Source: Gammaproteobacteria bacterium
GTDB taxonomy: Bacteria > Pseudomonadota > Gammaproteobacteria > JASBUN01
Reading direction: 5' to 3'
Assembly: GCA_030147845.1 (NCBI GenBank)
Contig: JASBUN010000041.1
Location: 34,630 to 98,629 of the forward strand
Length of the DNA stretch: 64,000 nt
In this document: positions 44,194-62,968 of the stretch, in pieces
How the letters are laid out: each line of letters begins with the position of its first letter
Numbering within the stretch: position 1 is the first letter of the stretch
Notes under the pieces: generated by a model
Told to the model about the DNA's origin: nothing
The model's database searches: none
Seen by the model: the letters and a program-made list of their open reading frames with translations, nothing else
Position numbers and translations under genes: made by a program

Positions 44194-46770
44194 CTATTCG
44201 GAAAGCCCTGATTTGAGTGCGTAAAGGCACTCCAGGGCCTGTCGCGGGGTCAGTGCGTCGGGGTCAATAGCACGCAAACGCTGTACTACCGGGTGCTCCT
44301 CGTTGGCTGCAAACAGCGCCATCTGTGGCGGCTCGGCAGCGCCCGCACTCGACAGCGGGGTCAAGTCGTTGCGTTCCAACACTTCCAGCCGCGCACGCGC
44401 CTGCGCGATGACGCCCTGCGGGACGCCGGCCAGCGCGGCGACGTGCAGCCCGTAGCTGCGATCCGCCGGACCGTCCTTTAGCGCATGCAGAAACACGATC
44501 GAGTCGCCATGCTCGATAGCGTCCAAGTGCGCATTGCGGATGGCGGGATAGGTGCTCGGCAGTTGTGTCAGTTCGAAATAGTGGGTGGCAAACAGGGTAT
44601 AGGCCCGAACGTGGGTGGCGAGGTGGACGGCGACCGCCCAGGCCAACGATAATCCATCGTAAGTGCTTGTTCCACGTCCAATTTCATCCATCAGCACGAG
44701 ACTGGTCGCGGTCGCATTGTGTAAAATATTGGCGGTTTCGGTCATTTCCACCATAAACGTCGAACGGCCGCTGGCGAGGTCGTCCGAAGCCCCGATACGG
44801 GTGAAAATACGGTCCACCGGGCCCAGCTCGACGTGTTTTGCGGGGACAAAACTACCGATATACGCCATTAGCACGATCAGTGCAGTTTGCCGCATATAGG
44901 TCGATTTTCCGCCCATGTTCGGGCCGGTTATTATCAGCATCGGGTGCTGATCGTCGACTTCGGTGTGGTTGGGCACAAAGGCGTGTTCGAGCACACGCTC
45001 GACCACCGGGTGGCGGCCGTCGCGGATAACGATGCCGGGCGCGTCGCTGAGTTCGGGGCACGTATAGTCGAGTGAATCGGCGCGCTCGCTGAGATTGACC
45101 AGTACGTCCAGTTCGGCCAGCGCTGCGGCGCTGAGCTGCAATACCCCCAGGTGCTCGACGAGCTGATCGAGTAAGCCTTCATACAAGGCCTTTTCACGTG
45201 CCAACGCGCGTTCCCGGGCGCTCAGTACCTTGTCCTCGAAGGCCTTCAATTCGGCCGTGATGTAGCGTTCGGCATTCTTCAGTGTTTGGCGGCGGGTGTA
45301 GTCTGCCGGTACCTGTTCCGACTGGCTGCGGCTGACTTCGATATAGAAGCCGTGCACCCGGTTGTAAGCGACCTTCAGGCCGGCGATGCCGCTACGCTGG
45401 CGTTCGCGCGCCTCCAGCTCGACCAAAAAGTGATCGGCGTTTTGGCTCAGGGCGCGCAATTCATCCAGTTCGGCGTCGTAGCCGCCGGCAATGACACCAC
45501 CGTCGCGCACCAACATGGCGGGGGATTCGACCAGCGCCGATGTCAGCAAGGTTTCGATGTGCGGGTGTTGCGCGATCTCGCCTGCCAGGGAACGCAGACG
45601 TGGCGAATCCAACGGCGCCAAATGACGCTGCAATTCCGGCAGTTGGCCGAGCGCGGCGCGCAGGGTAGTGAGATCGCGCGGGCGCGCGGAACGCAGCGCC
45701 ACACGTGCGAGTATGCGCTCGATGTCGCCAATGCCGCGCAGATGGTCGTGCAGCGCCGAGTAGGCGTGTTCGTCGAGCAAGGTTTGAATGACGTGGTGGC
45801 GCATGCGCAGCACTCGCCGGTCGCGCAAGGGCCGATGAATCCAGCGGCGCAGTAACCGACTGCCCATGGCGGTGGCGGTGTGATCCAGCACACCCGCCAG
45901 GGTGAATTCGTGGCGCCCGGTGATGCTGGTGTCGAGTTCCAGATTGCGACGCGTTGCGGCGTCCAGAATAACACTGTCATCGCGCGCCTCGACGGTCAGG
46001 GCGCGCCAATGCGGCAGTGCGGTACGCTGGGTCTCTTGCACATATTGCAGCAGGCAACCGGCGGCGGCGACGGCCGCGGGCATGTCGTCACAGCCGAAAC
46101 CCGACAAATCGTGTGTGCCGAACTGGGTGTTCAACAAGCGCTGGGCGGTGTCGGCTTCAAAGTGCCACGGCGGGCGGCGGCGCAAACCGGGCCGGGCGCC
46201 GATGACGTCGGCAACTTCGCTGTCCTCGCTGAGCAGGAGTTCGGCCGGCTTCAGGCGTTCCAGCTCGCTGGACAATGCTTCGCCGCCGCTGACTTCCTGC
46301 ACACTGCATCGACCGCCACTGAGGTCGAGCGCGGCGATTCCGTATCGGTCACGCTGTTGATGTACGGCAACGAGAAGATTGTCGCGACGTTCGCCGAGCA
46401 GCGCCTCGTCGGTCACGGTGCCGGGCGTGACGATGCGCACCACCTGTCGCTCGACCGGCCCTTTGCTGAGTGCCGGGTCGCCGATTTGTTCGCAAATGGC
46501 GACCGACTCGCCGGCGCGTACCAACTTGGCCAGATAACCGTCGGCGGCATGGTAGGGCACGCCGGCCATGGGGATGGGTTGACCGCCCGATTGCCCGCGC
46601 GCGGTCAAGGTAATGTCGAGCAGACGGGCGGCCTTGCGCGCATCGTCATAGAACAATTCGTAGAAATCGCCCATGCGATAGAACAGCAAAATGTCCGCAT
46701 GTTCCGCCTTGATGCGTAAATATTGCTGCATCATTGGCGTATGCGGCACATTTATTTCTAATGAGCTCAT
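44194..46770 (-). CDS. mutS: DNA mismatch repair protein MutS
   Basis: [27 protein letters not shown] and STFMVEM motifs; 858 aa. Confidence 0.97.
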
Positions 46771-46843: not shown

Positions 46844-46940
46844 TCTCACGAAATATCATCCAATCTCACGAAAAAGTGTAACTTGAAGTGTAACTTTTGC
46901 TGGTGTAACTTTTGTTGAAATCCAAAAGTTACACTTTTTT
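46844..46940. repeat. Repeat array between mutS and the integrase
   Basis: TCTCACGAAA occurs twice (46844-46853 and 46864-46873, 20 bp apart). GTGTAACTT occurs three times direct (46876, 46888, 46903). The 12-mer GTGTAACTTTTG lies at 46888-46899 and 46903-46914, with its exact inverse CAAAAGTTACAC at 46923-46934. The last pair forms a 12-bp stem with an 8-nt loop, followed by TTTTTT (46935-46940). Confidence 0.75.
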
Positions 46941-46975: not shown

Positions 46976-48286
46976 ATGCCAATGGGAACAGTACAGAGTA
47001 CCAAACCTCTATCTTCCCGGACAGTGGAGACGATGAAGCCGGGAGATAAGATTAAGGCCGACACGGGAGAAAACATTGGGTTGCGAGTGAAATGTGGGGC
47101 TACCGGCGTAAAGACATTTTTCTATCGCTATACCAGCCCGATCACCTCAAAGCTCGTTCAGGTGAAAATCGGCAACTTCCCGGAGACCTCCCTGGCCGAA
47201 GCGAGATTGAAGCTCCAGGGACTTAAACAAATTCGCCGCCAGGGGCACTGCCCGGCAACTGAGGCCAAAGAGGAGAAACGGCAGAAACGGGAGCAAGCCC
47301 AGGAATTGGAACAGGGACGAGTAGAGTCAGTAGAGAAGCCCTTCACCGCGGAGAACCTCGTAGAACTCTACCTGACCCAGTATATCGAAGACCGGAAATC
47401 TCCAAGCGGAAGAAAAATCGCCGGTGCACGAAAACCGAAAGGTCAGTCTGAGACGCGCAGAACCCTCTATGGCGATGTGATTCCCAAGTTGGGGGAGATG
47501 CCGGCAAATGCTGTCACGCGAAAGGCTGTGGTGGATATGATCATGGCAATTGTTCAACGTGGGGCAAATGTTCAAGCAGGAAATGTACTGAGAGAGCTTG
47601 CCGCCGCCTACGAATTTGCGATTGGTCTGGGCTATTTTTCAGATGAGTTTGCAAATCCGGCAATTCTCGCCAAATCAAGCCTCAAACAGGCCAAGGTGAA
47701 GCTTACCCATCAACGAGGAAAAAGAGTCCTCTCTGATACCGAGTTGGCGACGTTGCTGAAATGGTTGCCTGGCGCTGATTACACCGCAACACAAAAGAAT
47801 GTTCTTCGATTTACCCTCTGGACAGGGTGTCGTACCGGAGAGGTCTGCAATGCGGCCTGGAAGGACATCGACTTGAAGAAACGGACATTCCACATAAGGG
47901 AGAGTAAGACGGAGGTCGAGCGCTATGTACAATTGCCCCGTCAGGCGGTGGAATTCTTAACAACTCTTCGCCTGACCACTGGAGACTATCTGTTCCCATC
48001 CCAGAAAACGCGGCTGCCTATCCAGCAAAAACAACTAACCGAGCAGGCCTGGCGGATGAGGCAAAGCAACAGCATGGTAAATCTTCCGTCCTGGACACCT
48101 CATGATCTGCGCAGAAGTGTCAGGACTGGTCTGTCACGCTTGCAATGTCCTAACGAAGTGGCTGAAGCGGTATTGGGGCATTCACGTAAGGGGATTGAAG
48201 GAACCTACGATTTGCACAGGTACGAGGCGGAGTGTAGGCAGTGGTTACAGAAATGGGCGGATCATCTGGACTCGCTTATTCGTTAG
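46976..48286 (+). CDS. int: Tyrosine integrase, P4/CP4-57-like with N-terminal arm-binding (DUF4102-like) domain
   Basis: N-terminus LRVKCGATGVKTFFYRYTSP...VKIGNFPETSLAEARLK. Catalytic elements WTGCRTGEV, HDLRRSVRT and LGHSRKGIEGTYDLHRY. Confidence 0.92.
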   Translation: MPMGTVQSTKPLSSRTVETMKPGDKIKADTGENIGLRVKCGATGVKTFFYRYTSPITSKLVQVKIGNFPETSLAEARLKLQGLKQIRRQGHCPATEAKEEKRQKREQAQELEQGRVESVEKPFTAENLVELYLTQYIEDRKSPSGRKIAGARKPKGQSETRRTLYGDVIPKLGEMPANAVTRKAVVDMIMAIVQRGANVQAGNVLRELAAAYEFAIGLGYFSDEFANPAILAKSSLKQAKVKLTHQRGKRVLSDTELATLLKWLPGADYTATQKNVLRFTLWTGCRTGEVCNAAWKDIDLKKRTFHIRESKTEVERYVQLPRQAVEFLTTLRLTTGDYLFPSQKTRLPIQQKQLTEQAWRMRQSNSMVNLPSWTPHDLRRSVRTGLSRLQCPNEVAEAVLGHSRKGIEGTYDLHRYEAECRQWLQKWADHLDSLIR

Positions 48287-48578
48287 TAGTTGAGGCTCGA
48301 TCTTACAGTAAGTGCCAGTCTTCAACTGGCCGTGTTCGACCCGTTCCCGTCATTCCGGCGAATGCCGGAGTCCAGGCAGCCGCAAGGAAACGCGGGTCTT
48401 GGAACGATCCTAAGCAGACGGTTAGTCGTGTAAACTGTCCCCAGAATTCCTCCAGGTATTCTGTTGACCGAAAAACCGGGCTGCTTTACACGGATAATGA
48501 CAAACAAACTGCGGTTACTTAAGGCAAGACTGATGAAGCCTGTAGTGGCCGTTCTACCGATCAAAGGAGGTAAACGCC

Positions 48579-51464
48579 ATGATGGCGCGCGGTTCGGAGT
48601 GGAGAAGATGGGACCTTCACGTCCATACGCCAGACACGGCGCTTGAGGACAATTACGGAAGCTGGGACGAGTATATCGCGGGTATAGTCGCCCAGAATGA
48701 AGTCCGGGTCATTGGCGTTACCGATTACTTCCTGTTTGATAATTACGGTAAGCTAAAGGGTCACCATGAAAGCGGTGCATTGCCCGAAATTGATCTGCTC
48801 ATCCCCAATATCGAGTTCCGCATAGCGCCGCCGACCGATAAAGCAACTGCTTTGAATATTCATCTACTGGTCTCGCCGGAGGACCCTAACCACCAGCAAG
48901 AGATTCATAATGCACTCGCCCGGCTGACATGGGAGTATGGCGGCAAGAATTATTCGTGCATTCGTGACCAACTGATTGATCTTGGAAAAGCGTACGATCC
49001 CACTAAGACAGAAGAAAAGGGCGCACTCGCGGTTGGCGTTACGCAGTTCAAAATTGACTTTTCCAGTTTTCGAAATTGGTTTAAAAGAGAGCCCTGGATC
49101 AGGGGCAATTCCATTATCGTAGCGGCAGCAGGTGATGACGGTCTCTCGGGTTTTTATACCGACGGCGGATGGGCAGGCTGGCGCGAAGAAATCACAAGGT
49201 TTAGTCCTGCGCTATTTTGCGGCCGTCCGGGTGAACGCGACTTCTGGCTCTGCCGTACAACAGAAGAGCATAAAGAAACCGTAATGAAACTGGGAGGGAT
49301 GAAGCCGTGCCTGCACGGTTCCGATGCGCACGGCATGGACAAACTTTTCAAACCTGATCAGGACCGGTATTGCTGGATCAAGGCGGATACGACATTTGAC
49401 GGGCTCAAGCAGGTCCTTTACGAACCTGAAACCCGCGTCCATATCGGTCCGACAGAGCCGGTCTATCATGATGAATCCCGTGTCATCCGCAATATCCGAT
49501 TGTCCGGCTCGGACGGATGGTTTGATGATATAGAAATTCCGCTTAATGCCGGGCTGGTGTCCATCATCGGGCAAAAAGGCTCGGGTAAATCCGCATTGGC
49601 CGAAGTAACGGCCTTTGCTGCCGGAAGCTGGGCGACTGATGAAAAGGGCAGCTTTTTACGCCGCGCTGGCGGACTACTTAATGGCATGCAAGTCGAGCTT
49701 GAATGGTGCGATGGTGAAACAACGTCGGCAGTGCTTGGCGAAGAGCAGTCAGATGATTGTGCCGTGCGCTACCTGTCACAAAAATTTGTAGAGCATTTAT
49801 GTTCTGATGACCGGCTCGGCGACGAGCTTGTCAATGAAATAGAAAATGTCATCTTTTCCTATATTGACGAGAGTGAAAAGCTCAATGCCTCGTCATTTAA
49901 AGAACTCCGGGCAATAAAGACTGAAGGAACCCTCGCACAAGGGCAACGTCTTAGCGACGATATCAAACGCCTCATTGCCGAAGATTGTGAACTGCGCGAC
50001 AAAGCCCGTGCGCTGCCCGAAAAAAAATCGCGGATCAAGACGCTCGCCGATGAGAGGGCGGGGCTTGTCAAACAGATGCCAAAGGCCAGTACACCGGAAG
50101 AGCAAAAAACCCAGCAAGCCTTACAGCAGGCACGTACCACCCTGGCTGGCTTGCAAAAATCGGCAGGAGAAGACAAACAAAAGTTACAGAAGATCAAGAA
50201 TATCAGAACTGAAATCACGTCCTTTGAAACACGTATGCAACGGTTCTATGACGAACTGGAACCGGACCTCATCGAAGTCGATGTTCCACAGGAAAAGCGT
50301 GCGCGTTACAAGCCGGCATTTCCAGGAGAAACAGAGCCACCGCTTGCCGCGCGTGAAACGGCTATCAAAGCCACTATTAATACAAGGCTTGGCACAGAAG
50401 ACGCGCCTGCTTCCGGAACTATCCGCGCCATACAAAAAGAAATCGAAGCTTTGAGCAAGATAGACACTGCTGACAAGGCGCGAGCCAAACGGATTGAAGA
50501 AATCCAAAAACGCATTGCAGCGATTGATACCGAGACGGAAAGGCTCAACAAAGAAATCGAGCAGATTGAAGGTCCTGATAGAAATCGCGTCGGCGCCATC
50601 GGGACAGAACGCATGACGACCTATCGCACCTATTTCGAAAACCTCAAGGACGAGCATGCAACGCTTGCGGAATTGTACTCGCCGATCACGGCCCGTATTC
50701 AATCGGACGCTTCATTATCACAGGAACAAGCTCTCGAATTTTCCATTCGCTGGGAAGTCGATCTTGATACGTGGTTGACACGCGGCGAAGGCCTTTTCGA
50801 TCAGCGCCGGACCATTCCGTATAACACTATGGCCGGACTTAGAAAGGCAGCCCAAGAAAAACTCGTCCCCGCTTGGGCTTCGGGCGATCCCGACCAGATA
50901 AAACCTGCCATGGACGAATTTTTAACCGCGTTTCGGGACAAGAAGTTGCCGCCTTCACAATATATGCGCACAGGAATCACCGTGCAGGACTTGTTCGACT
51001 GGCTTTACGAGACGGAACATATCCGGCTGAGTTACGGCCTCAAATATAACGGTACAGAGCTTGAAAAACTCTCGCCCGGAACAAAGGGGATCGTTCTACT
51101 TATTCTATATCTCGGTATGGACGTGTCGGATTCACGGCCACTGATTGTCGACCAGCCGGACGAAAACCTCGATAACGAGTCGATTTACGAGTTGCTTACC
51201 GGGTACTTCAAAGCGGCAAAGTCAAGGCGGCAGATTATCCTGATTACCCACAACCCCAACCTTGTTGTAAACGCGGATTCAGAACAAGTCATTATCGCGA
51301 CCTGCGCGCGGCGTGAAAATGGCTTGCCGCATATCACCTATGAAGCGGGCGCGCTTGAAAATCCGCGTATCAGGGCACAGGTCTGTCGCATTCTGGAAGG
51401 CGGCACGACGGCCTTTCGCAAGCGTGAAAAACGCTACGCGCTTAATGCTGCCCAGTCGGTATAA
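48579..51464 (+). CDS. PHP-domain phosphoesterase fused to a Rad50/SMC-like ABC ATPase with long coiled-coil insert
   Basis: PHP motifs WDLHVHTP, GVTDY and LHGSDAH. Walker A GQKGSGKSA and Q-loop RYLSQKF. About 300 aa of E/K/Q/L-rich coiled-coil sequence. Signature-like LSPGTKG, Walker B LIVDQPDENLD and H-loop ILITHNPN. GGAGG at 48566-48570 lies 8 nt before the ATG. Confidence 0.8.
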   Translation: MMARGSEWRRWDLHVHTPDTALEDNYGSWDEYIAGIVAQNEVRVIGVTDYFLFDNYGKLKGHHESGALPEIDLLIPNIEFRIAPPTDKATALNIHLLVSPEDPNHQQEIHNALARLTWEYGGKNYSCIRDQLIDLGKAYDPTKTEEKGALAVGVTQFKIDFSSFRNWFKREPWIRGNSIIVAAAGDDGLSGFYTDGGWAGWREEITRFSPALFCGRPGERDFWLCRTTEEHKETVMKLGGMKPCLHGSDAHGMDKLFKPDQDRYCWIKADTTFDGLKQVLYEPETRVHIGPTEPVYHDESRVIRNIRLSGSDGWFDDIEIPLNAGLVSIIGQKGSGKSALAEVTAFAAGSWATDEKGSFLRRAGGLLNGMQVELEWCDGETTSAVLGEEQSDDCAVRYLSQKFVEHLCSDDRLGDELVNEIENVIFSYIDESEKLNASSFKELRAIKTEGTLAQGQRLSDDIKRLIAEDCELRDKARALPEKKSRIKTLADERAGLVKQMPKASTPEEQKTQQALQQARTTLAGLQKSAGEDKQKLQKIKNIRTEITSFETRMQRFYDELEPDLIEVDVPQEKRARYKPAFPGETEPPLAARETAIKATINTRLGTEDAPASGTIRAIQKEIEALSKIDTADKARAKRIEEIQKRIAAIDTETERLNKEIEQIEGPDRNRVGAIGTERMTTYRTYFENLKDEHATLAELYSPITARIQSDASLSQEQALEFSIRWEVDLDTWLTRGEGLFDQRRTIPYNTMAGLRKAAQEKLVPAWASGDPDQIKPAMDEFLTAFRDKKLPPSQYMRTGITVQDLFDWLYETEHIRLSYGLKYNGTELEKLSPGTKGIVLLILYLGMDVSDSRPLIVDQPDENLDNESIYELLTGYFKAAKSRRQIILITHNPNLVVNADSEQVIIATCARRENGLPHITYEAGALENPRIRAQVCRILEGGTTAFRKREKRYALNAAQSV

Positions 51465-51600
51465 AGTCTGTCCAAGAATACATTCTTTTCATAAGGATTT
51501 GTGAAGACCATCGGCATGGAATGAAGGTTTATGGGTTGACCGTTTAGGGCAATGCGTAACTACCTTGCACTTTAACGAATATATTTAGATTTTGATTTTA

Positions 51601-54600
51601 ATGGATGATCTAAACAAGCAAATACCGCCGCCAAAATCATGGATGGATTTTGAGAATCTATGCCATGGCCTTTTTAGTGCAATCTGGAGTGATCCTTATG
51701 CCCAAAAGAACGGCAGGAGTGGCCAGCCGCAACACGGTGTAGACGTTTTCGGATCGAAAAATCAGGAGTATGGCGTTTACGATGGTGTCCAATGCAAAGG
51801 CAAAAACGCCAATTATGGTAGTCAAGCAGATATAGAGGAAATCGAACAGGAAATCGCGAAAGCGGAGAAGTTTTCTCCGGATCTGCGTCACTGGATATAT
51901 GCGACGACTGCGCCCGTAGATTCCAAGTTACAAGAAGCCGCGCGAGAGATTTCGAAAGCGCGGGCGGCCAAGAATCAGTTTACCGTCTCTGTATTCGGAT
52001 GGGAGCAAATAGAATTCTTGCTGTGTAAGCATAAAGAGGTTTTGCGTGCCTTTTATCCCGAATTGGGATTTGATCCAAACGCCTTCATTGAAGAGCTTCG
52101 TAAACAACTTCAATCAGAAATATCCGATCTCACGTGTTTTCTTTCCTCTGCCACGACAAAAGAGGAGCAAAGCCGAAGCATTGTGGGCGATCCTGTGTGG
52201 GTCCCCGTAAAGTTCGGCCAGGGGCGCGGACTCGGGCCAGCCCTCATGGGCCGCTCGATGAGCGCGAGTGACGCCATTTCGTGTCCACAACTACCGGAAG
52301 TATCCGGAGTCATTGCTGACTTATCGCGTGCCTATGCATCGCGCATTGTTGGAGAGCCTGGCTCAGGAAAATCGCTTTCTGCCTTCCAGGCGATGAGACA
52401 CTTTGCCTCCGCAGGGTGGCAGATTTACAAGCTCGTCGATCCGCGCCGACAGGATATAAACATTCCTGATAAATCGAACGGTAGCAAAATACTTCTCTTT
52501 ATCGATGATGCTCACATCATCGATGAATCCCGTCTCAAATTGCTTGAAGAGAAGACCGGGCCGGATCTGTATGTTCTTTCAACCCACAATTCCGAAGACG
52601 GGCGCACATCCTTCCGCAATGCGATTGCTATTGATAGCAGCAGGGCCGTAACGGTAATTGCGAATGCGCTCATGCGCGATCCCCACAGGACGTTAGGAGA
52701 GGTCAGTAAAGTCGATAAGGATGTCGGTGAAAAGATGATGGATATCGGTCTTGAGGACCGCATAAGTGATGCACGGGAACGGGCGAATTGCCCATGGCAG
52801 TTTTGTTTCATTCTTGGTGGTGGCTGGCGTAGAGCAAGTGAATTAGCTGATGCTGCGCGGCACGCAAAGGCCGATATCATTCTTGCAGGTCTTGCGTGCC
52901 GTCAGTTGATATCCAGAGATGAACCTCTCGAAATCGAAGTTGCTCTAAAGCTCCTGTCTTGTGCCGGTATTGATGAAAAATCGGTCAATAACAGTATAGA
53001 TTGGCTCGTATCGCAGCGGTTGCTACTTTCAAGGGAAGATCTGAGAACACCGCATCAGCGATTTTCCGCCATCGTTCTCGGCAAGATTCTTCAAGGTCAG
53101 GATTTACCTGGCAGGGACACAATTGGAAAGCTTCTGCAGCACATGCTCAGAGATGAGTCCTATTCACTTGCAGGAAAGCGCATGCTGCTTCATGAATTGC
53201 GGTTTCAGGGCAATTATGGACGGTGGGCATATCTTGTGCCCGCAGACACACTTGGTGGTGATCTCGCAAAATGCTGGCAGGCAAGTAGCGCGGAAGAAAG
53301 ACTCCACGCCTGCTATTTTCTGAGTGAACTGGATTGCTACTATAATGGCTGGCCGGAGGCGTTGTTTAAAGACCACGAACAAGTTATTGCCGACTGGATT
53401 TCCGCTCCCCAAACACCTGTAGGGTGGGGGCTGGCCCGTCTCATACACGGAATTGGTAACCAGCATCGGGAATATATTTCTTCAATCATTGAAAAAGCCG
53501 ATCCGCTCTGCATAGCCCGAGTGGTGAATAATGTTGATGTTGATAGTACGGCCCATCTTGGGGAACTTGTCGGTGCCCTTGGCTATGTAAGGAACACGGA
53601 TTGGCACCGCGAATTTGCTTCCAAACTAGATAGAGATGCCTTACTAAATTTACCTGGACACTGGCCGGATGGTGAGGACCTCTGGGCTTTTGCCAAGTTG
53701 TGTCAAGCGCTTGACGGAGTGGACGAGAGTCTCGGACTGGACCTGGCTGCAAAGTTTATTCCCGTGGCCCAAAAAGCATATGACCGCGATCCGGTAGAAG
53801 CGTTTCACTTTCTGCACGACATGAATATGTCAGTGTTGAGGATTTACGATCCATTAGGCATTTATGTCGGGAAATTGGGTCCAAGAAATCGTCATCGCCA
53901 GATCGCCCGCCAAATGTTTAAGGAGATCAATGTCCAAAAGCTGGCATATCAGATATCTGAAACCCGGCTCCGCGATATGCAGTCCGCAGCAGGCCTTCTA
54001 TCGATGTTGCACAACGTTTCACCCGCAAAATATGAAAAGGTTATTGATGGTATAGATTGGAACTGCATTGCTGAAACCATCGGGCATCATTGGGACAACC
54101 TACCACATGAGGCGGAAGTGTTTCTTGGTGTTTGCTATGGGGCCGAACCCTCGCGTCACAAGCTGGACGGGCTCATCCTTGATAATCTTGAGAGGATACG
54201 GCTTTTCCCGCCCCGTATTGCTATCGTGAGCCCCGATGCAGCAATTCGTCACGTTGAGGCGGGAAAGGAAATCCGTATTGCGCAGCACGATCATGTCGAT
54301 TGGACATTTGGCCCAGTTGTCCTCGCATTGTTTGATGAAAGGAAGCCAGAACGACTAGAGTCCGCGGTGCAGAGTGCGGAGGCCACCGCAAGCAAGACGT
54401 TTTCGCAGAGAAACCATAGCTGGTTTAAAGACGCGTATGAGTACATCAATATCTTGAATAAAGTAGCGCCAAAAAGTTTGGAGCGAATTCTGGATGGTGT
54501 GGATGTTTCCGGTGCTTCGGAAGGGTGGGCTGATTCCTTGAAGAAGGGAGGAGGCCCAGCCAAGACAGTGGCATTTCTAATTGCGCGCAGCCTTAAGCGC

Positions 54601-54681
54601 GAAGACAAGCTTGGAGAGCTTGCGCAATCATTAAGAAAGCGTTTCCCGCGTAAATCCGTCCTACCGAAAAATAATTCGTGA
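51601..54681 (+). CDS. Mrr-like PD-(D/E)XK nuclease domain + P-loop NTPase + large C-terminal helical region (STAND/Avs-like architecture)
   Basis: N-terminus FENLCHGLFSAIW...GVDVFG...GVQCKG follows the Mrr catalytic-domain pattern (D...QxK). Walker A GEPGSGKS and Walker B ILLFIDDAH. About 650 further residues carry no recognised motif. ATG 51601 is preferred to TTG 51592. Confidence 0.75.
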   Translation: MDDLNKQIPPPKSWMDFENLCHGLFSAIWSDPYAQKNGRSGQPQHGVDVFGSKNQEYGVYDGVQCKGKNANYGSQADIEEIEQEIAKAEKFSPDLRHWIYATTAPVDSKLQEAAREISKARAAKNQFTVSVFGWEQIEFLLCKHKEVLRAFYPELGFDPNAFIEELRKQLQSEISDLTCFLSSATTKEEQSRSIVGDPVWVPVKFGQGRGLGPALMGRSMSASDAISCPQLPEVSGVIADLSRAYASRIVGEPGSGKSLSAFQAMRHFASAGWQIYKLVDPRRQDINIPDKSNGSKILLFIDDAHIIDESRLKLLEEKTGPDLYVLSTHNSEDGRTSFRNAIAIDSSRAVTVIANALMRDPHRTLGEVSKVDKDVGEKMMDIGLEDRISDARERANCPWQFCFILGGGWRRASELADAARHAKADIILAGLACRQLISRDEPLEIEVALKLLSCAGIDEKSVNNSIDWLVSQRLLLSREDLRTPHQRFSAIVLGKILQGQDLPGRDTIGKLLQHMLRDESYSLAGKRMLLHELRFQGNYGRWAYLVPADTLGGDLAKCWQASSAEERLHACYFLSELDCYYNGWPEALFKDHEQVIADWISAPQTPVGWGLARLIHGIGNQHREYISSIIEKADPLCIARVVNNVDVDSTAHLGELVGALGYVRNTDWHREFASKLDRDALLNLPGHWPDGEDLWAFAKLCQALDGVDESLGLDLAAKFIPVAQKAYDRDPVEAFHFLHDMNMSVLRIYDPLGIYVGKLGPRNRHRQIARQMFKEINVQKLAYQISETRLRDMQSAAGLLSMLHNVSPAKYEKVIDGIDWNCIAETIGHHWDNLPHEAEVFLGVCYGAEPSRHKLDGLILDNLERIRLFPPRIAIVSPDAAIRHVEAGKEIRIAQHDHVDWTFGPVVLALFDERKPERLESAVQSAEATASKTFSQRNHSWFKDAYEYINILNKVAPKSLERILDGVDVSGASEGWADSLKKGGGPAKTVAFLIARSLKREDKLGELAQSLRKRFPRKSVLPKNNS

Positions 54682-55113
54682 GCGATAAGTAGTTCTGTTA
54701 TAGCAATTGTTTTCACTATTGCGCGGTATTCGCCTAACGACAAACGTTCTCTTATTGTTCTTGACTCTTGCGCGTGAATGAGTCATGAGTCGGTCATGGC
54801 TATCGAACCGGAGTATGGTAGTACCTTAAAGAGAAAGGCAAAGAATGAGCGTCAGTGACATCGATATCTACCTTACCGCCAATGTTGGCCTGGGGTCTTT
54901 GAATTTGGATTTTCTCAATGCCCGCTCCTGGCTTATTGCTGTCGTTGTCCGGTAATCAGCGATTGTCTCGACTAGGGTGGAAGTTAGCATTCGGGTTGTC
55001 TGAAATCGCCTCCCGCTAACATCCATTCATGGCCGTTCTGAACCACTGTCAGACGGATAGGGCGCGCGACCTCATTTGACAAGGTCTATCGCTCGAGTCT
55101 GAGCTCAAGCAGC

Positions 55114-55392
55114 TTATTGGTGACAAACAATCACATAAGCTGCCAGATTCTGCCGTTTTTCAATGAGAAGTTTTACCACGGCTTGAAGTTCCTCTGTTGT
55201 TTTTCCCGAGGCAAATGCATTTAACATGGTATCCACTTCATGGGCCAGCCAGCCGACAGAACGATTACCAAGGGAAACCCCAGGAGGGAACAAGCCTTCA
55301 CTGATTCGACGATAGAGGGTCGCGTGACTCATCCCGGTTCGATTTAACACCGCTGGTTTTCTTTCGATTCGGATTGCGTGATGCTCAGACAT
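55114..55392 (-). CDS. alpA: AlpA-family phage/island transcriptional regulator (HTH)
   Basis: LNRTGMSHATLYRRISEGLFPPGVSLGNRSVGWLAHEVDTML matches the AlpA pattern. Confidence 0.85.
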   Translation of the reverse strand: MSEHHAIRIERKPAVLNRTGMSHATLYRRISEGLFPPGVSLGNRSVGWLAHEVDTMLNAFASGKTTEELQAVVKLLIEKRQNLAAYVIVCHQ

Positions 55393-55748
55393 ACGCGATG
55401 AATACAGGCTGGTGTGCGATTGTCGGGTGCTTCATGGGTTCACGTGCTCCACCGTGCTTTGATACACAGTTCATACTAACGGTGAGTCGTGCGAGAAAAA
55501 CCTGGGAAAGCGGGCAGACCGGGGCGGGCTTTCGTCATTGAAATCGCGCCGGTGCGTGTCGATGAGCGGCGGCGATTACAGATACTTTTTGAAGTACGCC
55601 ACGCTCACAAGCACGGAGAGGCCTTGACGCTTCTGTCGTAAGTCTTTGGTGTGATGGAGTGGGCCCGGACCAGCGGGCACCGTGATCTTCGGGTACTGCA
55701 GAATGTCAATTATGCACCATCAGTGAAAGACCTGTCCGAAAAGCTCGA

Positions 55749-56015
55749 CTAGGCAACCCGGTTCTCCTGATGTTTCTCAGTCCAGGCAATCACTTCCTTG
55801 GCCTTCCACAAGGGTTGCCCGCGGCGTTTACTGCCGGCGACTGGCAACCTGATGGCCTGGGGAAACCCGGGGAGAGCAGTGATGCGGTCACGAACGACCG
55901 ATTCGGAGCGCTTCAAATAAGCGGCGATCTCTTTCACCGTCCATAAGTCCACCGTAATCGGGATACGCGGGGAAAGGTTGTTGATCGCATCCAGTAGTAT
56001 TTCGATCTGATTCAT
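55749..56015 (-). CDS. Excisionase-like HTH DNA-binding protein
   Basis: WTVKEIAAYLKRSESVVRDRI...PLWKAKEVIAWTE is typical of small MerR/excisionase-type HTH proteins in mobile elements. Confidence 0.65.
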   Translation of the reverse strand: MNQIEILLDAINNLSPRIPITVDLWTVKEIAAYLKRSESVVRDRITALPGFPQAIRLPVAGSKRRGQPLWKAKEVIAWTEKHQENRVA

Positions 56016-56414
56016 ACTTGTTCCATGGCTTCATCGTTTTCGATGCAATGATTGTATTGGCCTGGTCACAAGGGAATTAGGTCGAAACCCCGGATCCAGC
56101 AGCGGCTTTTCCGCGTATTTTTCGGTACGCGCCGTCCTTCCAGCCGTCTAGTTCACACATACCGGTCGCAGCGTTACTAATAAAGCAGGAAAGCGACTCT
56201 AGAGGGACGTGCTTTCGGAGACGTTTATTTTTGTCCAGGCCACTAACATCCGAAGGGAAGAAATTCATGAAGGAGAAAGTGGTGAAAATCGAACTTTGCA
56301 GTGGCAACCAGCCGTATTTGAATCATGTTTGCGACATCGCACGTAAAGATCCCACTATCGCTTCGCTTCCGCGGGCAACGCCATCCAATCTGGCTTTCCT
56401 ATAGGGTACCGCCA

Positions 56415-57998
56415 ATGGCTAGCCAAGACTCTAGCGCCATGCAGGAACCGGGCATTCGTGACGCGGCCACGACAATCATGCTGGATGTGTGTCGTATCAA
56501 GCCCTATGAACGCAATCCGCGTCGCAGCGAGAATCCGGAATACGATCGCATCAAGGCCTCCATCCGTGCCAATGGCATTGATCAGCCCTTGGTAGTCACG
56601 TGTCGACCCGGCGAAACCGACTACGTCGTCGGTGCCGGCGGCAACACGCGGTTGCACATCCTGCAGGCGTTGTACCAGCAAACGGGTGACGAGCGATTCC
56701 AGTGGGTCGATTGCCTGTTCAAGCCGTGGCGTGAAGAGTCGGATGTGCTGCTGGCACATTTAAGGGAAAACGATCTGCGCGGTGGACTGAGTTTCATCGA
56801 CAAGGCGCAGGCCGTCTTCGAAGCCAAACAACTTCTCGAAGAGGAAATGGGCAACGATAGCCTTTCGCAGCGACGCCTCGAAACGATACTTCGAGATCGC
56901 GGCTACAGCTTGAGTCACGGGCTGATCTCCCAGATGGGCTACGCTGTTCACACCTTGCTCCCGGTGATTCCCCAGGCGCTGAAGTCGGGTCTCGGCCGAC
57001 CGCAGGTGGAGCGGATTCGTGCGCTGGACAGGGCCGCGCGCGCCCTCTGGAAAAAACGCAAGCTGGGTGATGACGAATCCTTCGATGCAGTGTTCGCGGC
57101 ATTGTGTGAACGATACGACGGTCCCGAGTGGGATCTCGAACTGTTGCGCAATGCCATTGAGATTGAGGTTGCGGAAGAGCTCGAGGTGAGCATCCAGGCC
57201 ATTCGTGTTGAACTGGACGCGCACCTTTTAGGGCGCGAGATCGAAACCCCAATCCTTGAGAACGATCATGACGCGGATACACCAGAAGAAAGAGCGCCTT
57301 CTTTTAATGCCATTACGACAAAAGCAAAAAGTGCTGCCGAGGAAAAGATACTTGGTGACTCACGCGGCAACAACGCGGATAAGGCATCCAAGGGTGAAGT
57401 GCCTCCACCGCAACGACCATCGCTTGTCATCGCGCCAGATCCATCGGAGGAAGACTCAGAGGAGCAGCCGGCTAACCCTATAGAGTCAGAGGCGGGTTTC
57501 ATCGCAAGTTCGATCACGCCCAGCCAACTCGCTTCCACGGATCTCAAATCATTGCGTGCTCGGGCCTGGACGCTGGCGGCTCGTCTCGCGCAACGCAACG
57601 GCATCGGCGGCCTGGTCGCGCCGCTGTCCGGCAAGGGACTCGGGTTCATCCTCCGCGACGTACCGGATTCCTCGTTGGCCGAACAGTTGGACGCCGACAC
57701 GCTTGGCCAGGTCTCCATGTTGTGGTGGCACCTGGCGGCTTGTGCGGAGATGACCGTGGCACCACTGGATGCCGTTATCGCCACCTTGTCTGACGACTCG
57801 ATCCTGCGCCAGGCGCTCGAGAACCAGGATGCCGGCCTGCTCTTCAACAGTGTCTGGACCCTCGACCCGGGACATACCGGCTATCGGCTGTGGCGCCAAC
57901 TCGGCGACCAGGACTGGCAGGACTTGCTCAACCTGATGGATACCTACCGCCGCATACATCGTGCGGCGGAGGCCTCGCAGGTCCGGCTCTGGGAGTAG
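56415..57998 (+). CDS. ParB-like nuclease-domain protein (ICE type)
   Basis: IKPYERNPRRSENPEYDRIKASIRANGIDQPLVV and VVGAGGNTRLHIL give the ParB/Srx-fold N-terminal pattern. ATG 56415 lies in the track ORF frame. Confidence 0.8.
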   Translation: MASQDSSAMQEPGIRDAATTIMLDVCRIKPYERNPRRSENPEYDRIKASIRANGIDQPLVVTCRPGETDYVVGAGGNTRLHILQALYQQTGDERFQWVDCLFKPWREESDVLLAHLRENDLRGGLSFIDKAQAVFEAKQLLEEEMGNDSLSQRRLETILRDRGYSLSHGLISQMGYAVHTLLPVIPQALKSGLGRPQVERIRALDRAARALWKKRKLGDDESFDAVFAALCERYDGPEWDLELLRNAIEIEVAEELEVSIQAIRVELDAHLLGREIETPILENDHDADTPEERAPSFNAITTKAKSAAEEKILGDSRGNNADKASKGEVPPPQRPSLVIAPDPSEEDSEEQPANPIESEAGFIASSITPSQLASTDLKSLRARAWTLAARLAQRNGIGGLVAPLSGKGLGFILRDVPDSSLAEQLDADTLGQVSMLWWHLAACAEMTVAPLDAVIATLSDDSILRQALENQDAGLLFNSVWTLDPGHTGYRLWRQLGDQDWQDLLNLMDTYRRIHRAAEASQVRLWE

Positions 57999-58003
57999 GC
58001 TCG

Positions 58004-58612
58004 ATGGACGGGACCAAGGAATCCGATTTGATCACGGCCGTGCTGATGTACGCGATCCGCTGCCTGGCCGAAGGGGATCAAGCCGCGTTGCGCAACATGA
58101 ATTTCGGACCGCGCGAAATCGAGGCGTTGCGCGAGATGAACCTGGCCGATCTCTATCGCGTCGAATCCTTGCGCGCCCATTGCCTGGATATCGTTCTCAA
58201 TCGGGACGTGTACTGGCCCATGATCGAGCATCTGCGCCGTCAGCGCGAATCCGAGGAACTGCAACAAGTGCTCATTGCCGCCGACGCACCGTTGGAGATG
58301 ATGCAAACGCTCTTCGGCTTGGGCTCCCGCGAATACACGCGCCTGCGCCGTATGCTCACTGTCGATCCTTCGGTCGGCCGGCCGGCGGAACCCGATGAAG
58401 CGAGCACGCACAAGCTCTGGAACGCCTGGGTCCAACGGACGGACACCGAAGAAGAGGGTCCGCTCCCCCCGGACGAGTATCTCGCCATCCACCGTGAAAC
58501 CGGTATCTCTATGCGGGCCATATGGAACTTGACGCAACGCTGGAATCAATACGGTGACTTGACGGGTCGAAGCAGTCACGACCCTGTGGAGCGAGCGTGT
58601 TCGGATGGATGA
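58004..58612 (+). CDS. Conserved ICE protein (DUF2857-like by recollection)
   Basis: MDGTKESDLITAVLMYAIRCLAEGDQAALRNMNFGPREIEALREMNLADLYRV. The gene starts 6 nt after the ParB-like stop and overlaps the next gene by 8 nt. The family name is unverified. Confidence 0.55.
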   Translation: MDGTKESDLITAVLMYAIRCLAEGDQAALRNMNFGPREIEALREMNLADLYRVESLRAHCLDIVLNRDVYWPMIEHLRRQRESEELQQVLIAADAPLEMMQTLFGLGSREYTRLRRMLTVDPSVGRPAEPDEASTHKLWNAWVQRTDTEEEGPLPPDEYLAIHRETGISMRAIWNLTQRWNQYGDLTGRSSHDPVERACSDG

Positions 58613-59864: not shown

Positions 59865-59880
59865 CCGATACCCGAAATGC

Positions 59881-59901
59881 AGTGGTTACAGTGTAACCAC
59901 T
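59881..59901. repeat. Perfect 21-bp palindrome in the intergenic region
   Basis: AGTGGTTACA-G-TGTAACCACT, 17 nt after the stop of the replication-protein-like gene. Confidence 0.8.
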
Positions 59902-60032
59902 CTCAGCACTCTCTCCCCGGTTATTGTGTCTCGGCGTCAACCACGCCGAACCGTGCGGGAATAATTCCTTGTCGGCCGGCTCTCGTCATGGATTGATGGG
60001 CGACTCATTCACCAGGATGAAGGATATGCCAC

Positions 60033-60833: not shown

Positions 60834-60908
60834 TTTTCGCTGGTATGCAACGCGTCGCCCGCCATACTACTGCGACGACATGATTAATGCCGGTAGGGCC
60901 GAAGCCGT

Positions 60909-61289: not shown

Positions 61290-61328
61290 GGCTGGTTGCA
61301 TAAAAGACGAGACAAGAACGGAGGAGAA

Positions 61329-62510: not shown

Positions 62511-62553
62511 TCGCGCTTGCTCCGGATGAAACCAACCTGAAGGAGTAAGCGCT

Positions 62554-62958: not shown

Positions 62959-62968
62959 ATCAACATCC

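What the first reader, a model, noticed from the sequence alone, without database searches (positions are those of the whole stretch)
48579..51464. Single polypeptide joining a PHP phosphoesterase to a Rad50/SMC-like ABC ATPase
The 961-aa product starts with a full set of PHP metal-binding motifs (WDLHVHTP, GVTDY, LHGSDAH). It continues into an ABC ATPase head split by a roughly 300-aa coiled-coil-like segment. The head motifs are Walker A GQKGSGKSA and Q-loop RYLSQKF before the segment, then LSPGTKG, LIVDQPDENLD and ILITHNPN after it. This amounts to an SbcCD/Rad50-Mre11 machine in one chain, with a PHP domain in place of the calcineurin-type nuclease. ATPase-plus-nuclease logic of this kind recurs in anti-phage systems (OLD/Gabija, PARIS, Lamassu, Wadjet). 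The gene sits in low-GC cargo right after an integrase. I cannot tell by eye whether this architecture already has a family name.
Basis: partly seen in the sequence, partly recalled or inferred. Interest (0 to 1): 0.8.

Follow-up and report, generated by a model that had tools for sequence, protein, structure and literature searches.

The report
TrlF-family PHP nuclease–ABC ATPase gene
The gene is real and does fuse a PHP-type nuclease domain to a Rad50/SMC-like ATPase, but this design already has a name (the TrlF family, sister to the characterised anti-phage protein Ppl), so it is a new copy of a known kind carried on a mobile element.

Summary
ORF 48579-51464 (+) encodes 961 aa with a divergent PHP-fold N-terminal domain and an ABC head split by about 270 aa of coiled coil.

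The protein matches NCBIfam NF045780, "TrlF family AAA-like ATPase", end to end (605.7 bits, cutoff 350). It is collinear over 826 columns with the anti-phage protein Ppl (hhalign E = 4e-39). Ppl is reported to be an NTP-inhibited PHP 3'-5' ssDNA exonuclease that senses 3'-OH DNA ends.

The family is large (2,061 50%-identity clusters at E <= 1e-30) and common on conjugative plasmids. It has no obligate partner. Its neighbours include RM, CBASS, Abi, TA genes and integrases. A TrlG (AlbA_2) partner is facultative and absent here.

Here it is cargo of an integrative element, next to an unrelated Mrr-like/STAND gene. The most likely function is a Ppl-like single-gene defence nuclease, but no TrlF-family member has been shown experimentally to defend against phage.

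Two family-wide departures are worth recording: an invariant Gln replaces the Walker B catalytic Glu, and Tyr replaces a PHP metal-ligand His.

Novelty: new member of a known kind.

The parts
48579..51464 (+). trlF: 961-aa TrlF-family PHP-ABC ATPase, whole gene including stop codon
   Evidence: ORF. NCBIfam NF045780 at 605.7 bits against cutoff 350, covering residues 4-953 against model positions 1-943/944. More than 4,000 homologues.
48579..49463 (+). N-terminal divergent PHP-fold phosphoesterase domain (residues 1-295) with a helical insertion at about residues 100-240
   Evidence: Domain model pLDDT 91.8. Foldseek ranks 1-19 are all PHP fold: RNase AM 9etk at 8e-7, 3o0f, 7ug9, Pol III alpha PHP. 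No Pfam or PDB sequence hit.
48618..48626 (+). PHP motif I, H14-V-H16
   Evidence: H14 in 70/71 and H16 in 71/71 sequences. Aligned to Ppl 'HNH'.
48720..48728 (+). PHP motif II variant, T48-D49-Y50. Tyr stands where Ppl has His ('SDH'); canonical PHP domains have His here from general knowledge.
   Evidence: Y50 in 71/71 sequences. Ppl alignment shows 'ISDH' opposite 'VTDY'.
49317..49331 (+). PHP motif IV, G247-S-D249-A-H251
   Evidence: D249 in 71/71 and H251 in 70/71 sequences. Identical 'GSDAH' in Ppl.
49476..49868 (+). ABC head N-lobe (residues 300-430) with Walker A G331-S338 (nt 49569-49592) and Q-loop Q401 (nt 49779-49781)
   Evidence: Invariant G331, G336, K337 and Q401. Rad50 and SMC N-terminal head alignments.
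49896..50708 (+). Antiparallel coiled-coil arm (residues 440-710). Poorly conserved in sequence, with no CxxC zinc hook.
   Evidence: Helices 440-477, 479-498, 506-566, 586-604, 615-628 and 633-709 in the model. Profile hits to SMC coiled coils. Only one Cys in this stretch.
50721..51443 (+). ABC head C-lobe (residues 715-955). Contains signature LSPGTKG (nt 51069-51089), Walker B/D-loop LIVDQPDENLD (nt 51141-51173), H-loop H891 (nt 51249-51251) and the family-specific C-terminal 'LEGGxxAFxxRxxRY' motif.
   Evidence: Invariant S832, G834, G837, D858, Q859, P860, N863, D865, H891, E940, G941 and R949. 34% identity to the Ppl C-terminus. Rad50 alignment puts Q859 opposite the catalytic Glu.
46976..48286 (+). 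Context: P4-type tyrosine integrase of the integrative element that carries trlF
   Evidence: Pfam Phage_integrase 3e-23, Arm-DNA-bind_3 and Phage_int_M.
47000..55000 (.). Context: low-GC cargo block (GC 0.48-0.52 against about 0.58) holding the integrase, trlF and the STAND gene
   Evidence: Composition profile.

Best explanation
The gene is a TrlF-family member. It is a self-contained, single-polypeptide nuclease-ATPase carried as cargo of an integrative mobile element, and most probably an anti-phage or anti-foreign-DNA effector that works like its homologue Ppl.

Shown here:
- A PHP-fold metal-dependent phosphoesterase domain is fused to a Rad50/SMC-type ABC head whose two lobes are joined by a coiled-coil arm of about 270 aa.
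- Active-site and nucleotide-binding residues are under strong conservation across the family.
- The family has no obligate partner gene and lives in mobile and defence neighbourhoods.

Inferred by homology to Ppl (as reported in a review and in citing papers):
- Nucleotide binding to the ABC head, and possibly to the PHP site, keeps the enzyme off.
- When phage replication depletes NTPs and free 3'-OH DNA ends appear, the PHP domain degrades DNA exonucleolytically and infection is halted.

The invariant Gln at the position of the Walker B catalytic Glu is shared with Ppl. It fits a head that mainly binds and senses NTP, perhaps through NTP-dependent head engagement, rather than one that turns over ATP quickly.

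In some clades a TrlG (AlbA_2) protein is added as a facultative partner. It is absent here.
For: Family assignment: NF045780 equivalog at 605.7 bits (cutoff 350), end to end. RefSeq uses the same name for plasmid homologues.

Homology to Ppl: BLASTP over both termini, E = 2e-9 and 8e-18. hhalign probability 100%, E = 4e-39, 826 aligned columns, TrlF 7-958 against Ppl 2-892.

Fold: PHP; SMC, Rad50, JetC and LmuB heads.

Conservation of catalytic residues.

Ppl function: it defends against T7 and is countered by Bas63 gp130 (PMC11482910). It is an NTP-inhibited PHP 3'-5' ssDNA exonuclease that senses 3'-OH ends (PMC12904381; Xu et al. Mol Cell 2026, cited in PMC13434339).

No obligate partner: no neighbour family occurs in more than 6 of 84 loci.

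Defence and mobile context:
- type III RM plus PIN/PhD
- MmeI-like RM plus SIR2
- CBASS
- Abi
- HicAB
- embedded in a type I RM operon
- integrases (and this window)
- TIR, HEPN-Toprim, HipA and ABC-3C among the flanking genes
- 213 plasmids with near-full-length copies; matching plasmid records are mostly conjugative
Against: - No experiment on any TrlF-family protein was found. The only genetic study (Photorhabdus TRL operon, PMC7554251) recovered about 20 independent suppressors, all in trlG and none in the larger trlF. TrlF was therefore not required for that phenotype, and phage defence was not tested.
- The protein fails the Ppl model cutoff by a wide margin (103.6 against 1000). PADLOC v2 has no model that covers it.
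- One PHP ligand position is Tyr instead of His across the whole family, so chemistry or metal content may differ.
- The nearest structural neighbours of the PHP domain are RNases (RNase AM) rather than DNases.
- The defence-island association is qualitative. No enrichment statistic against a genomic background was computed.
- The Ppl mechanism is taken from a review and from citing papers. The primary paper could not be read.
Confidence: 0.6

Rival explanations
1. An RNA-directed enzyme. The PHP domain acts as an exoribonuclease like RNase AM/TrpH, and the ABC/coiled-coil module gates it. The system would act on phage or host RNA (abortive infection or stress response) rather than on DNA ends.
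For: - The top structural matches of the PHP domain are RNase AM (9etk, 7ug9) and a TrpH-like phosphoesterase (3o0f).
- The facultative partner TrlG is annotated 'RNA-binding domain-containing protein' / Schlafen AlbA_2.
- The phage counter-defence protein against Ppl is Ro60-like, i.e. an RNA-binding fold (PMC11482910).
Against: - Ppl, the characterised homologue, is reported as an ssDNA 3'-5' exonuclease.
- Pol III alpha PHP domains, which are associated with DNA, match almost as well.
- The ATPase resembles DNA-binding SMC and Rad50 heads.
Confidence: 0.12
2. A mobile-element maintenance or competition factor rather than a phage-defence gene. It would process DNA ends or secondary structures for the ICE or plasmid itself, or exclude rival plasmids (Wadjet-like), which would explain its abundance on conjugative plasmids and ICEs.
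For: - 1,147 plasmid records hold a match, including Ppl and partial matches. 823 of them are conjugative and 213 are near full length.
- Positions next to relaxase/mob and partition genes.
- Here it lies in an ICE next to the integrase and near ParB.
- Structural similarity to JetC and MukB.
Against: - Defence genes are themselves typical plasmid and ICE cargo, so location does not discriminate.
- The gene also occurs in chromosomal RM/CBASS/TA islands without conjugation genes.
- No conserved linkage to any replication or transfer gene.
Confidence: 0.13
3. An orphaned or decoupled component of a TRL-type two-gene growth-restriction (toxin-like) module that needs TrlG. Without trlG and trlR the copy in this window is inactive or vestigial.
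For: - In the founding locus the phenotype maps to trlG.
- In the closest well-assembled clade, 3 of 4 loci carry an AlbA_2 gene starting 1-2 nt after trlF.
- The window has no TrlG homologue and no trlR-like ORF.
Against: - Only 3 of 92 surveyed loci have TrlG.
- The closest homologues (82% and 70% identity) also lack it.
- The ORF is intact and every catalytic residue is preserved.
- Ppl works as a single gene.
Confidence: 0.1
4. A housekeeping DNA double-strand-break repair enzyme, a fused functional analogue of SbcCD/Mre11-Rad50.
For: ABC head plus coiled coil plus nuclease is the SbcCD logic. Rad50 and RecN are among the structural hits.
Against: - Patchy, accessory distribution on plasmids, ICEs and islands.
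- Low-GC cargo beside an integrase.
- No zinc hook.
- The Walker B catalytic Glu is replaced by an invariant Gln.
- No match to any repair-family model above cutoff.
Confidence: 0.03

Closest known systems
TrlF (NCBIfam NF045780, 'TrlF family AAA-like ATPase'). Founding member: trlF of the Photorhabdus laumondii temperature restriction locus, trlR-trlF-trlG.
   Same: Full-length match above the curated cutoff. Same length class, and same PHP-like N-terminus (the founder was annotated 'histidinol phosphatase') followed by an ABC ATPase. RefSeq annotates plasmid homologues with this name.
   Different: The window lacks the trlR and trlG partners of the founding operon. Enterobacterial plasmid copies that RefSeq annotates as TrlF are only about 30-32% identical to the window protein; identity to the founder itself was not measured. 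No function has been demonstrated for TrlF itself.
Ppl (NCBIfam NF042955; PADLOC 'Ppl'), the single-gene anti-phage system of E. coli and Klebsiella plasmids
   Same: Collinear homologue over 826 columns (hhalign E = 4e-39). Same PHP motifs (HxH, E, H, GSDAH), the same 'CW[IL]K..FDGL' linker, Walker A, 'SPGxKG' signature, the 'DQPE' Walker B with Gln in place of Glu, the H-loop and the 'EGGxxAFRxR' tail. Encoded as a single gene.
   Different: Only 24-34% identity in the alignable ends. It fails the Ppl model cutoff (103.6 against 1000). TrlF has Tyr where Ppl has His in PHP motif II. It is 66 aa longer, with a larger PHP insertion. Trigger and phage range are unknown.
Spaf_1101 family AAA-like ATPase (NCBIfam NF045781)
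   Same: Third branch of the same superfamily. It shares the C-terminal half-head (131.9 bits, residues 795-954).
   Different: Below cutoff (475). Found in Firmicutes plasmids and prophages. The N-terminal part was not compared.
Rad50-Mre11 / SbcCD, and the SMC-like defence ATPases JetC (Wadjet) and LmuB (Lamassu)
   Same: ABC head split by an antiparallel coiled coil and coupled to a nuclease. Best structural and profile matches for the ATPase part.
   Different: The nuclease is fused in cis and is PHP-fold, not calcineurin-like or Toprim/Cap4. There is no zinc hook or hinge and no kleisin or accessory subunits. The catalytic Glu is replaced by Gln. PADLOC scores to LmuB are marginal (30 bits).
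PHP-fold nucleases: RNase AM/TrpH (YciV) and the Pol III alpha PHP domain
   Same: Same fold (Foldseek E = 8e-7 to 1e-4). Same HxH...E...H...DxH metal-site pattern.
   Different: No sequence-profile similarity is detectable. TM-score is only 0.4-0.5. There is a large helical insertion. Motif II is Tyr. It is fused to an ABC ATPase.

Membership tests
TrlF family AAA-like ATPase (NF045780) | Whole-protein HMM score at or above the curated equivalog cutoff (350 bits) | tested here: met
   605.7 bits, E = 2.5e-181
TrlF family AAA-like ATPase (NF045780) | End-to-end coverage of the model, i.e. the same domain order along the full length | tested here: met
   Residues 4-953 align to model positions 1-943 of 944 in a single stretch. 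More than 100 full-length collinear representatives.
TrlF family AAA-like ATPase (NF045780) | Operon context of the founding locus, trlR-trlF-trlG. This is a context feature, not part of the HMM definition. | tested here: not met
   No TrlG homologue in the window. No trlR-like ORF in the 290-bp upstream gap. TrlG is present in only 3 of 92 homologous loci, so it is facultative.
Ppl anti-phage protein (NF042955 / PADLOC Ppl) | HMM score at or above the curated cutoff (1000 bits) | tested here: not met
   103.6 bits in NCBIfam. 89.9 bits in PADLOC, as two partial stretches.
Ppl anti-phage protein (NF042955 / PADLOC Ppl) | Collinear PHP + ABC-N + coiled coil + ABC-C architecture homologous to Ppl | tested here: met
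   hhalign probability 100%, E = 4e-39, 826 columns. BLASTP over both ends.
Ppl anti-phage protein (NF042955 / PADLOC Ppl) | NTP-inhibited 3'-5' ssDNA exonuclease activity and a phage-protection phenotype | not testable with these tools
   Requires biochemistry and plaque assays. Known for Ppl only through the literature.
PHP (polymerase and histidinol phosphatase) superfamily | Match to a PHP sequence profile (e.g. Pfam PHP) or to PHP proteins in the PDB by sequence | tested here: not met
   No Pfam family at E <= 10 for residues 1-300. No PDB sequence at E <= 10 with a 29-sequence profile.
PHP (polymerase and histidinol phosphatase) superfamily | PHP fold (distorted alpha/beta barrel) | tested here: met
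   Foldseek ranks 1-19 are exclusively PHP proteins with probability about 1.0, then a drop to 0.12 or less. TM-score is 0.39-0.53.
PHP (polymerase and histidinol phosphatase) superfamily | Conserved metal-ligand motifs: HxH, motif II His, Glu, His, DxH | tested here: inconclusive
   H14, H16, E79, H95, D249 and H251 are conserved in 70-71 of 71 sequences, but the motif II His is an invariant Tyr (Y50).
Rad50/SbcC-type ABC ATPase | Walker A, Q-loop, signature, Walker B, D-loop and H-loop on two lobes separated by an antiparallel coiled coil | tested here: met
   Invariant motif residues. Model helices 440-709. Rad50 and SMC structural and profile hits.
Rad50/SbcC-type ABC ATPase | Catalytic Glu immediately after the Walker B Asp | tested here: not met
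   D858-Q859, with Gln in 71/71 sequences. Q859 aligns to the Glu of Rad50 'DEP'. Ppl also has 'DQP'.
Rad50/SbcC-type ABC ATPase | CxxC zinc hook at the coiled-coil apex, and a separate Mre11/SbcD calcineurin-type nuclease partner | tested here: not met
   There is a single Cys (C470) in residues 440-710 and no conserved apex column. No conserved neighbour gene.
Lamassu / Wadjet / Gabija / PARIS | Significant full-length match to LmuB, JetC, GajA or AriA models together with their partner genes | tested here: not met
   Only partial, weak PADLOC hits: LmuB 30 bits, AriA 27 bits, GajA 15 bits. No partner genes nearby.

The most novel reading that the evidence does not exclude
The TrlF family is an experimentally unvalidated anti-phage or anti-plasmid clade, distinct from Ppl and far larger than its annotation suggests: 2,061 50%-identity clusters at E <= 1e-30, hundreds of clinical conjugative plasmids, ICEs, and insertions inside RM operons.

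It would have its own trigger logic. The evidence for that is an altered PHP metal site (invariant Tyr50), a natively 'EQ-like' ABC head that senses NTP rather than hydrolysing it, and in some clades a Schlafen-like TrlG co-factor.

Heat-induced misfiring of such a system would also explain the Photorhabdus temperature-restriction phenotype as defence autoimmunity.
Probability: 0.45. Interest if true: 0.45.

Novelty: new member of a known kind. Interest (0 to 1): 0.3.

Why it matters
For this window it matters little. The gene is one more copy of an already named family, whose sister Ppl has a published mechanism.

The wider value is as a pointer. The TrlF family is abundant on conjugative Enterobacteriaceae plasmids and ICEs and sits inside RM, CBASS and Abi neighbourhoods. 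Yet no direct test of its function was found, and it has no model of its own in PADLOC v2.

Showing that TrlF proteins are Ppl-like NTP-gated nucleases would add a widespread single-gene defence family. It would test whether an invariant Walker B Gln is a general signature of 'nucleotide-sensor' ABC heads. It might also reinterpret the Photorhabdus temperature-restriction phenotype as defence autoimmunity.

Tried and rejected
1. Pfam on the N-terminal 300 aa, even at E <= 10, gave nothing. A single-sequence PDB search gave only marginal Rad50 hits. An N-terminal-domain profile against PDB sequences gave nothing. PHP had to be established by fold.

2. Literature searches for 'TrlF' collided with the spectroscopy acronym TRLFS and with tropolone trl genes. 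The right source was found only through the trlF+trlG co-occurrence search.

The family alignment against metagenome contigs worked instead.

4. The idea that the downstream 1029-aa gene is a functional partner was rejected. No homologue of it occurs in any of about 90 other trlF loci. It belongs to its own widespread nSTAND3 family.

5. The idea that TrlG is an obligate partner was rejected. It occurs in 3 of 92 loci.

6. The promoter and terminator scan around the gene was no better than shuffles.

7. The search for a trlR-like small ORF upstream found only low-complexity, overlapping ORFs without Pfam hits.

8. The search for an earlier comparative-genomics description of a PHP-ABC fusion was unproductive.

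9. The primary Ppl paper (Xu et al. 2026) is not held. Its claims are cited second-hand.

10. The PADLOC and Pfam scans of 135 flanking genes list only the top 25 families, so no quantitative defence-enrichment figure could be derived.


Full report
**1. Observation**

The ORF at 48579-51464 (+) exists as described: ATG start, 961 codons plus stop.

The gene lies in a block of reduced GC, 0.48-0.52 between about 47 and 55 kb against about 0.58 for the rest of the window. It sits 290 bp downstream of a P4-type tyrosine integrase at 46976-48286, which carries Phage_integrase, Arm-DNA-bind_3 and Phage_int_M domains. That integrase abuts the 5' end of mutS (44194-46770, minus strand). There is no tRNA gene in the window.

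**2. Is it more than chance?**

Yes. The protein has more than 4,000 database relatives at E <= 1e-5. The best 120 are all about 960 aa and 59-82% identical.

An exhaustive search of 50%-identity representatives found 8,240 clusters at E <= 1e-3 and 2,061 at E <= 1e-30. Well over 100 of these are full-length collinear matches at 32-50% identity.

In a 71-sequence alignment at 29-81% identity the following are invariant:
- Proposed PHP positions: H16, E79, H95, D249. D12, H14 and H251 are conserved in at least 90% of sequences.
- ABC motifs: Walker A G331/G336/K337, Q-loop Q401, signature S832/G834/G837, Walker B D858, D-loop D865, H-loop H891.

**3. Domain identities**

*ATPase.*
- Pfam gives sub-threshold or marginal SMC_N, AAA_21, AAA_23 and AAA_15 hits.
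- The family profile hits SMC5/6, SMC3/4 and Rad50 heads and coiled coils in the PDB, down to E = 4e-11.
- A full-length AlphaFold model is confident (pLDDT 89.4, pTM 0.75). It shows two head lobes (about 300-430 and 715-955) joined by long helices at 440-709.
- Foldseek returns Smc head with coiled coil, Rad50, MukB, JetC, RecN, LmuB, cohesin and condensin.
- There is no CxxC hook. The only Cys in residues 440-710 is C470, and no coiled-coil column is conserved.

*N-terminal domain.*
- Sequence methods fail. Pfam finds nothing at E <= 10, and a 29-sequence profile finds nothing in PDB sequences at E <= 10.
- Fold succeeds. The domain model (pLDDT 91.8, pTM 0.91) gives only PHP-fold proteins as Foldseek ranks 1-19: RNase AM 9etk (E = 8e-7), the TrpH-like 3o0f, 7ug9, and many Pol III alpha PHP domains. 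Probability then falls from about 1.0 to 0.12 or less.
- TM-scores of 0.39-0.53 indicate a divergent PHP domain with a helical insertion at about residues 100-240.

**4. Two family-wide peculiarities**

(a) PHP motif II is 'TDY', with Tyr50 invariant in 71/71 sequences. Ppl has 'SDH' at this position. Canonical PHP enzymes have a metal-binding His here (general knowledge of the superfamily).

(b) The residue after the Walker B Asp is Gln859 in 71/71 sequences. The HMMER alignment to Rad50 places it opposite the catalytic Glu of 'DEP', and Ppl also has 'DQPE'. In Rad50, SMC and ABC transporters, E-to-Q at this position is the classic hydrolysis-dead, ATP-trapping mutation (established knowledge). 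I infer that the TrlF/Ppl head is primarily an NTP-binding switch or sensor, or that it uses the nearby E861/E862 as an alternative base.

**5. What it is called**

NCBIfam NF045780, 'TrlF family AAA-like ATPase' (an equivalog model), matches residues 4-953 to model positions 1-943/944 at 605.7 bits against a cutoff of 350. RefSeq already annotates plasmid homologues with that name.

The name comes from the 'temperature restriction locus' trlR-trlF-trlG of Photorhabdus laumondii (PMC7554251). In that study:
- All mapped temperature-tolerant suppressors hit trlG, an AlbA_2 + HATPase_c_4 protein mis-annotated as RecG.
- None hit the larger trlF, which was annotated 'histidinol phosphatase'.
- Deleting the whole operon relieved the restriction.
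- No biochemical function was assigned to TrlF.

Weaker, below-cutoff hits go to two sister models: Spaf_1101 (131.9 bits against 475) and the anti-phage protein Ppl (103.6 against 1000). PADLOC's best hit is also Ppl, and it is partial.

**6. Relation to Ppl**

I compared the window protein with a bona fide RefSeq-annotated ppl gene from Klebsiella plasmid pKP91 (L009).
- BLASTP aligns the PHP domain plus Walker A (2-347 against 1-308, 24% identity, E = 2e-9) and the C-lobe (804-952 against 750-892, 34%, E = 8e-18).
- Profile-to-sequence hhalign gives probability 100%, E = 4e-39, over 826 columns spanning TrlF 7-958 and Ppl 2-892 of 895.

TrlF and Ppl are therefore end-to-end homologues with the same architecture.

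What is reported about Ppl:
- It is a single-gene system with 'an ATPase domain and a PHP domain'. It impairs T7 and is countered by Bas63 gp130 (PMC11482910).
- A 2026 review summarises it as an ssDNA 3'-5' exonuclease. NTPs bound to both the PHP and NTPase domains inhibit it. It is activated by phage-induced nucleotide depletion together with 3'-OH ends made by phage homing endonucleases (PMC12904381).
- The primary reference is Xu et al., Mol Cell 2026;86:180, identified through PMC13434339. It is not held, so I could not read it.

**7. Genomic context of the family**

*Close homologues on long contigs:*

| Locus | Identity | Neighbours |
|---|---|---|
| L001/L002 | 82% | after two integrases; followed by YozE-like, DUF4917 and PAAR/AHH toxin genes |
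| L003 | 70% | type III RM and PIN/PhD |
| L004 | about 63% | TrlG-like AlbA_2 gene 2 nt downstream; MmeI-like RM and SIR2 |
| L005 | about 61% | among IS elements |
| L090 | about 62% | AlbA_2 partner, two integrases, a CBASS operon (SMODS + bacHORMA + Cap8 + AAA) |
| L091 | about 61% | AlbA_2 partner, ParB, two integrases |
| L092 | about 60% | HicAB |

*Plasmids:*
- 1,147 records match, including Ppl and partial hits. 213 records have at least 80% coverage. 823 of the matching records are conjugative.
- E. coli IncFII: beside an Abi-family gene.
- Bradyrhizobium: beside CBASS cyclase and SAVED genes.
- Y. ruckeri pYR4: Abi - TrlF - PLD.
- Klebsiella IncFIB: hsdR - trlF - TrlG-like - hsdS - AAA - hsdM, that is, embedded in a type I RM operon.

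*Systematic survey.* I surveyed 80 diverse metagenomic loci (27-59% identity) together with the loci above.
- All-vs-all clustering of flanking ORFs found no neighbour family in more than 6 of 84 loci.
- A TrlG profile hits only 3 of 92 loci and nothing in the window.
- Pfam scans of 135 nearest flanking genes show no dominant family, but a defence and mobilome flavour: TIR_2, HEPN_Toprim_N, HipA_C, Methylase_S, ABC-3C CTD10, ResIII, PIN_3, integrases, transposases, DUF4917 and a YhcG PDDEXK nuclease. Some housekeeping genes are mixed in.

*Conclusion.* TrlF is a self-contained module. TrlG is a facultative, clade-restricted partner. The neighbourhoods are typical of defence islands and mobile elements. 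This association is qualitative; I could not compute an enrichment statistic.

**8. This window's element**

Downstream of trlF, in order:
- a 1029-aa gene (51592-54681)
- AlpA (55114-55392, minus strand)
- ICE PFGI-1-type ParB (56325-57998; TIGR03764, 293 bits)
- DUF2857, an HTH_36 protein, AcaB, a ParM-like actin and RadC

This is an integrative, probably conjugative or mobilisable, element inserted next to mutS that runs off the window end.

The 1029-aa gene has a weak Mrr-type nuclease N-terminus and weak nSTAND3/5 hits. It belongs to its own widespread family of about 1025-aa 'nSTAND3 domain-containing NTPases', some with recognisable Mrr_cat domains. None of its relatives occurs in any other trlF locus. 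It is an independent Avs-like module, not a partner of trlF.

**9. Mechanism**

Shown:
- the architecture
- the conserved catalytic and nucleotide-binding residues
- autonomy from partner genes
- mobile and defence context
- end-to-end homology to Ppl

Inferred:
- A homodimer forms through NTP-dependent head engagement, as in all Rad50/SMC-type heads.
- The NTP-bound state is auto-inhibited.
- The PHP exonuclease is released on DNA ends when nucleotide pools fall during infection, by transfer from Ppl.

I put 0.6 on 'Ppl-like defence nuclease'. The specific trigger is less certain.

Rivals:

| Rival | Confidence | Main reasons |
|---|---|---|
| RNA-directed nuclease | 0.12 | RNase AM is the closest fold; TrlG is annotated as RNA-binding; the Ppl counter-defence protein is Ro60-like |
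| Element maintenance or plasmid competition | 0.13 | abundance on conjugative plasmids and ICEs |
| Orphaned TRL component | 0.10 | the TRL phenotype maps to trlG, which is absent here |
| Housekeeping repair | 0.03 | ABC head plus nuclease resembles SbcCD logic |

**10. Novelty and verdict**

Its open question, whether this architecture has a family name, is answered yes: TrlF, with Ppl as the characterised sister.

This gene is a new member of a known kind. Residual interest lies in the lack of any experimental test of the TrlF family itself, and in the family-wide Tyr50 and Gln859 substitutions.

Interest: 0.3.

Noticed in passing
window 51592-54681 (+): A 1029-aa gene immediately downstream of trlF. 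It has a weak Mrr-type restriction-endonuclease N-terminus (Mrr_cat/Mrr_cat_2, E about 0.01-0.02) and weak nSTAND3/nSTAND5 NTPase hits. It belongs to a widespread family of about 1025-aa 'nSTAND3 domain-containing NTPases' (546 hits at E <= 1e-5), some with clear Mrr_cat domains. That makes it an Avs-like nuclease-STAND candidate defence gene with no PADLOC or NCBIfam model. It is not linked to trlF in any other locus.
   Followed up: partly
window 46876-46934: The 9-mer GTGTAACTT occurs four times, three direct and one inverted, within 59 bp between the mutS start and the integrase start, and nowhere else in the window (expected 0.13; 0 of 100 shuffles reach 4). It is probably an array of protein-binding sites (integrase arm sites, an excisionase site or an operator) at the island boundary.
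   Followed up: partly
window 46976-64000: An integrative element inserted next to the 5' end of mutS with no tRNA target. Gene order: P4-type integrase, cargo (trlF, STAND gene), AlpA (55114-55392, minus strand), ICE PFGI-1-type ParB (56325-57998), DUF2857, an HTH_36 protein, AcaB (60033-60833), a ParM-like actin (61296-62354), RadC (63063-63554). It runs off the window end. The att sites and the far boundary were not determined.
   Followed up: partly
L094 (Klebsiella pneumoniae plasmid NZ_CP016810.1), locus coordinates 1-10450: trlF and a TrlG-like 'RNA-binding domain-containing protein' are embedded inside a type I restriction-modification operon: hsdR - trlF - trlG-like - hsdS - AAA ATPase - hsdM, with overlapping or abutting reading frames. 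This position is typical of accessory defence genes.
   Followed up: no
A1 alignment; window residues 858-862 (nt 51150-51164): The Walker B motif is D-Q-P-[ED]-E, with Gln invariant in 71/71 TrlF sequences and also present in Ppl, at the position of the catalytic Glu of Rad50, SMC and ABC transporters. This is a natural 'EQ' head, which may mark nucleotide-sensing rather than hydrolysing ABC modules.
   Followed up: partly
plasmid collection and phage collection: TrlF, Ppl and Spaf_1101 relatives occur on 1,147 plasmid records, 823 of them conjugative. Escherichia accounts for 353 and Klebsiella for 336. In contrast only 7 phage records match, and just one of those is a long match (59% coverage; Microcystis phage Mwe-JY31, H31).
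   Followed up: no
L090 13128-15912 (-): A complete-looking type III CBASS operon (SMODS cyclase, bacHORMA_2, Cap8, AAA/Trip13-like) lies 3 kb from a trlF-trlG pair and between integrase genes. This is an example of a compact defence island carrying the family.
   Followed up: no
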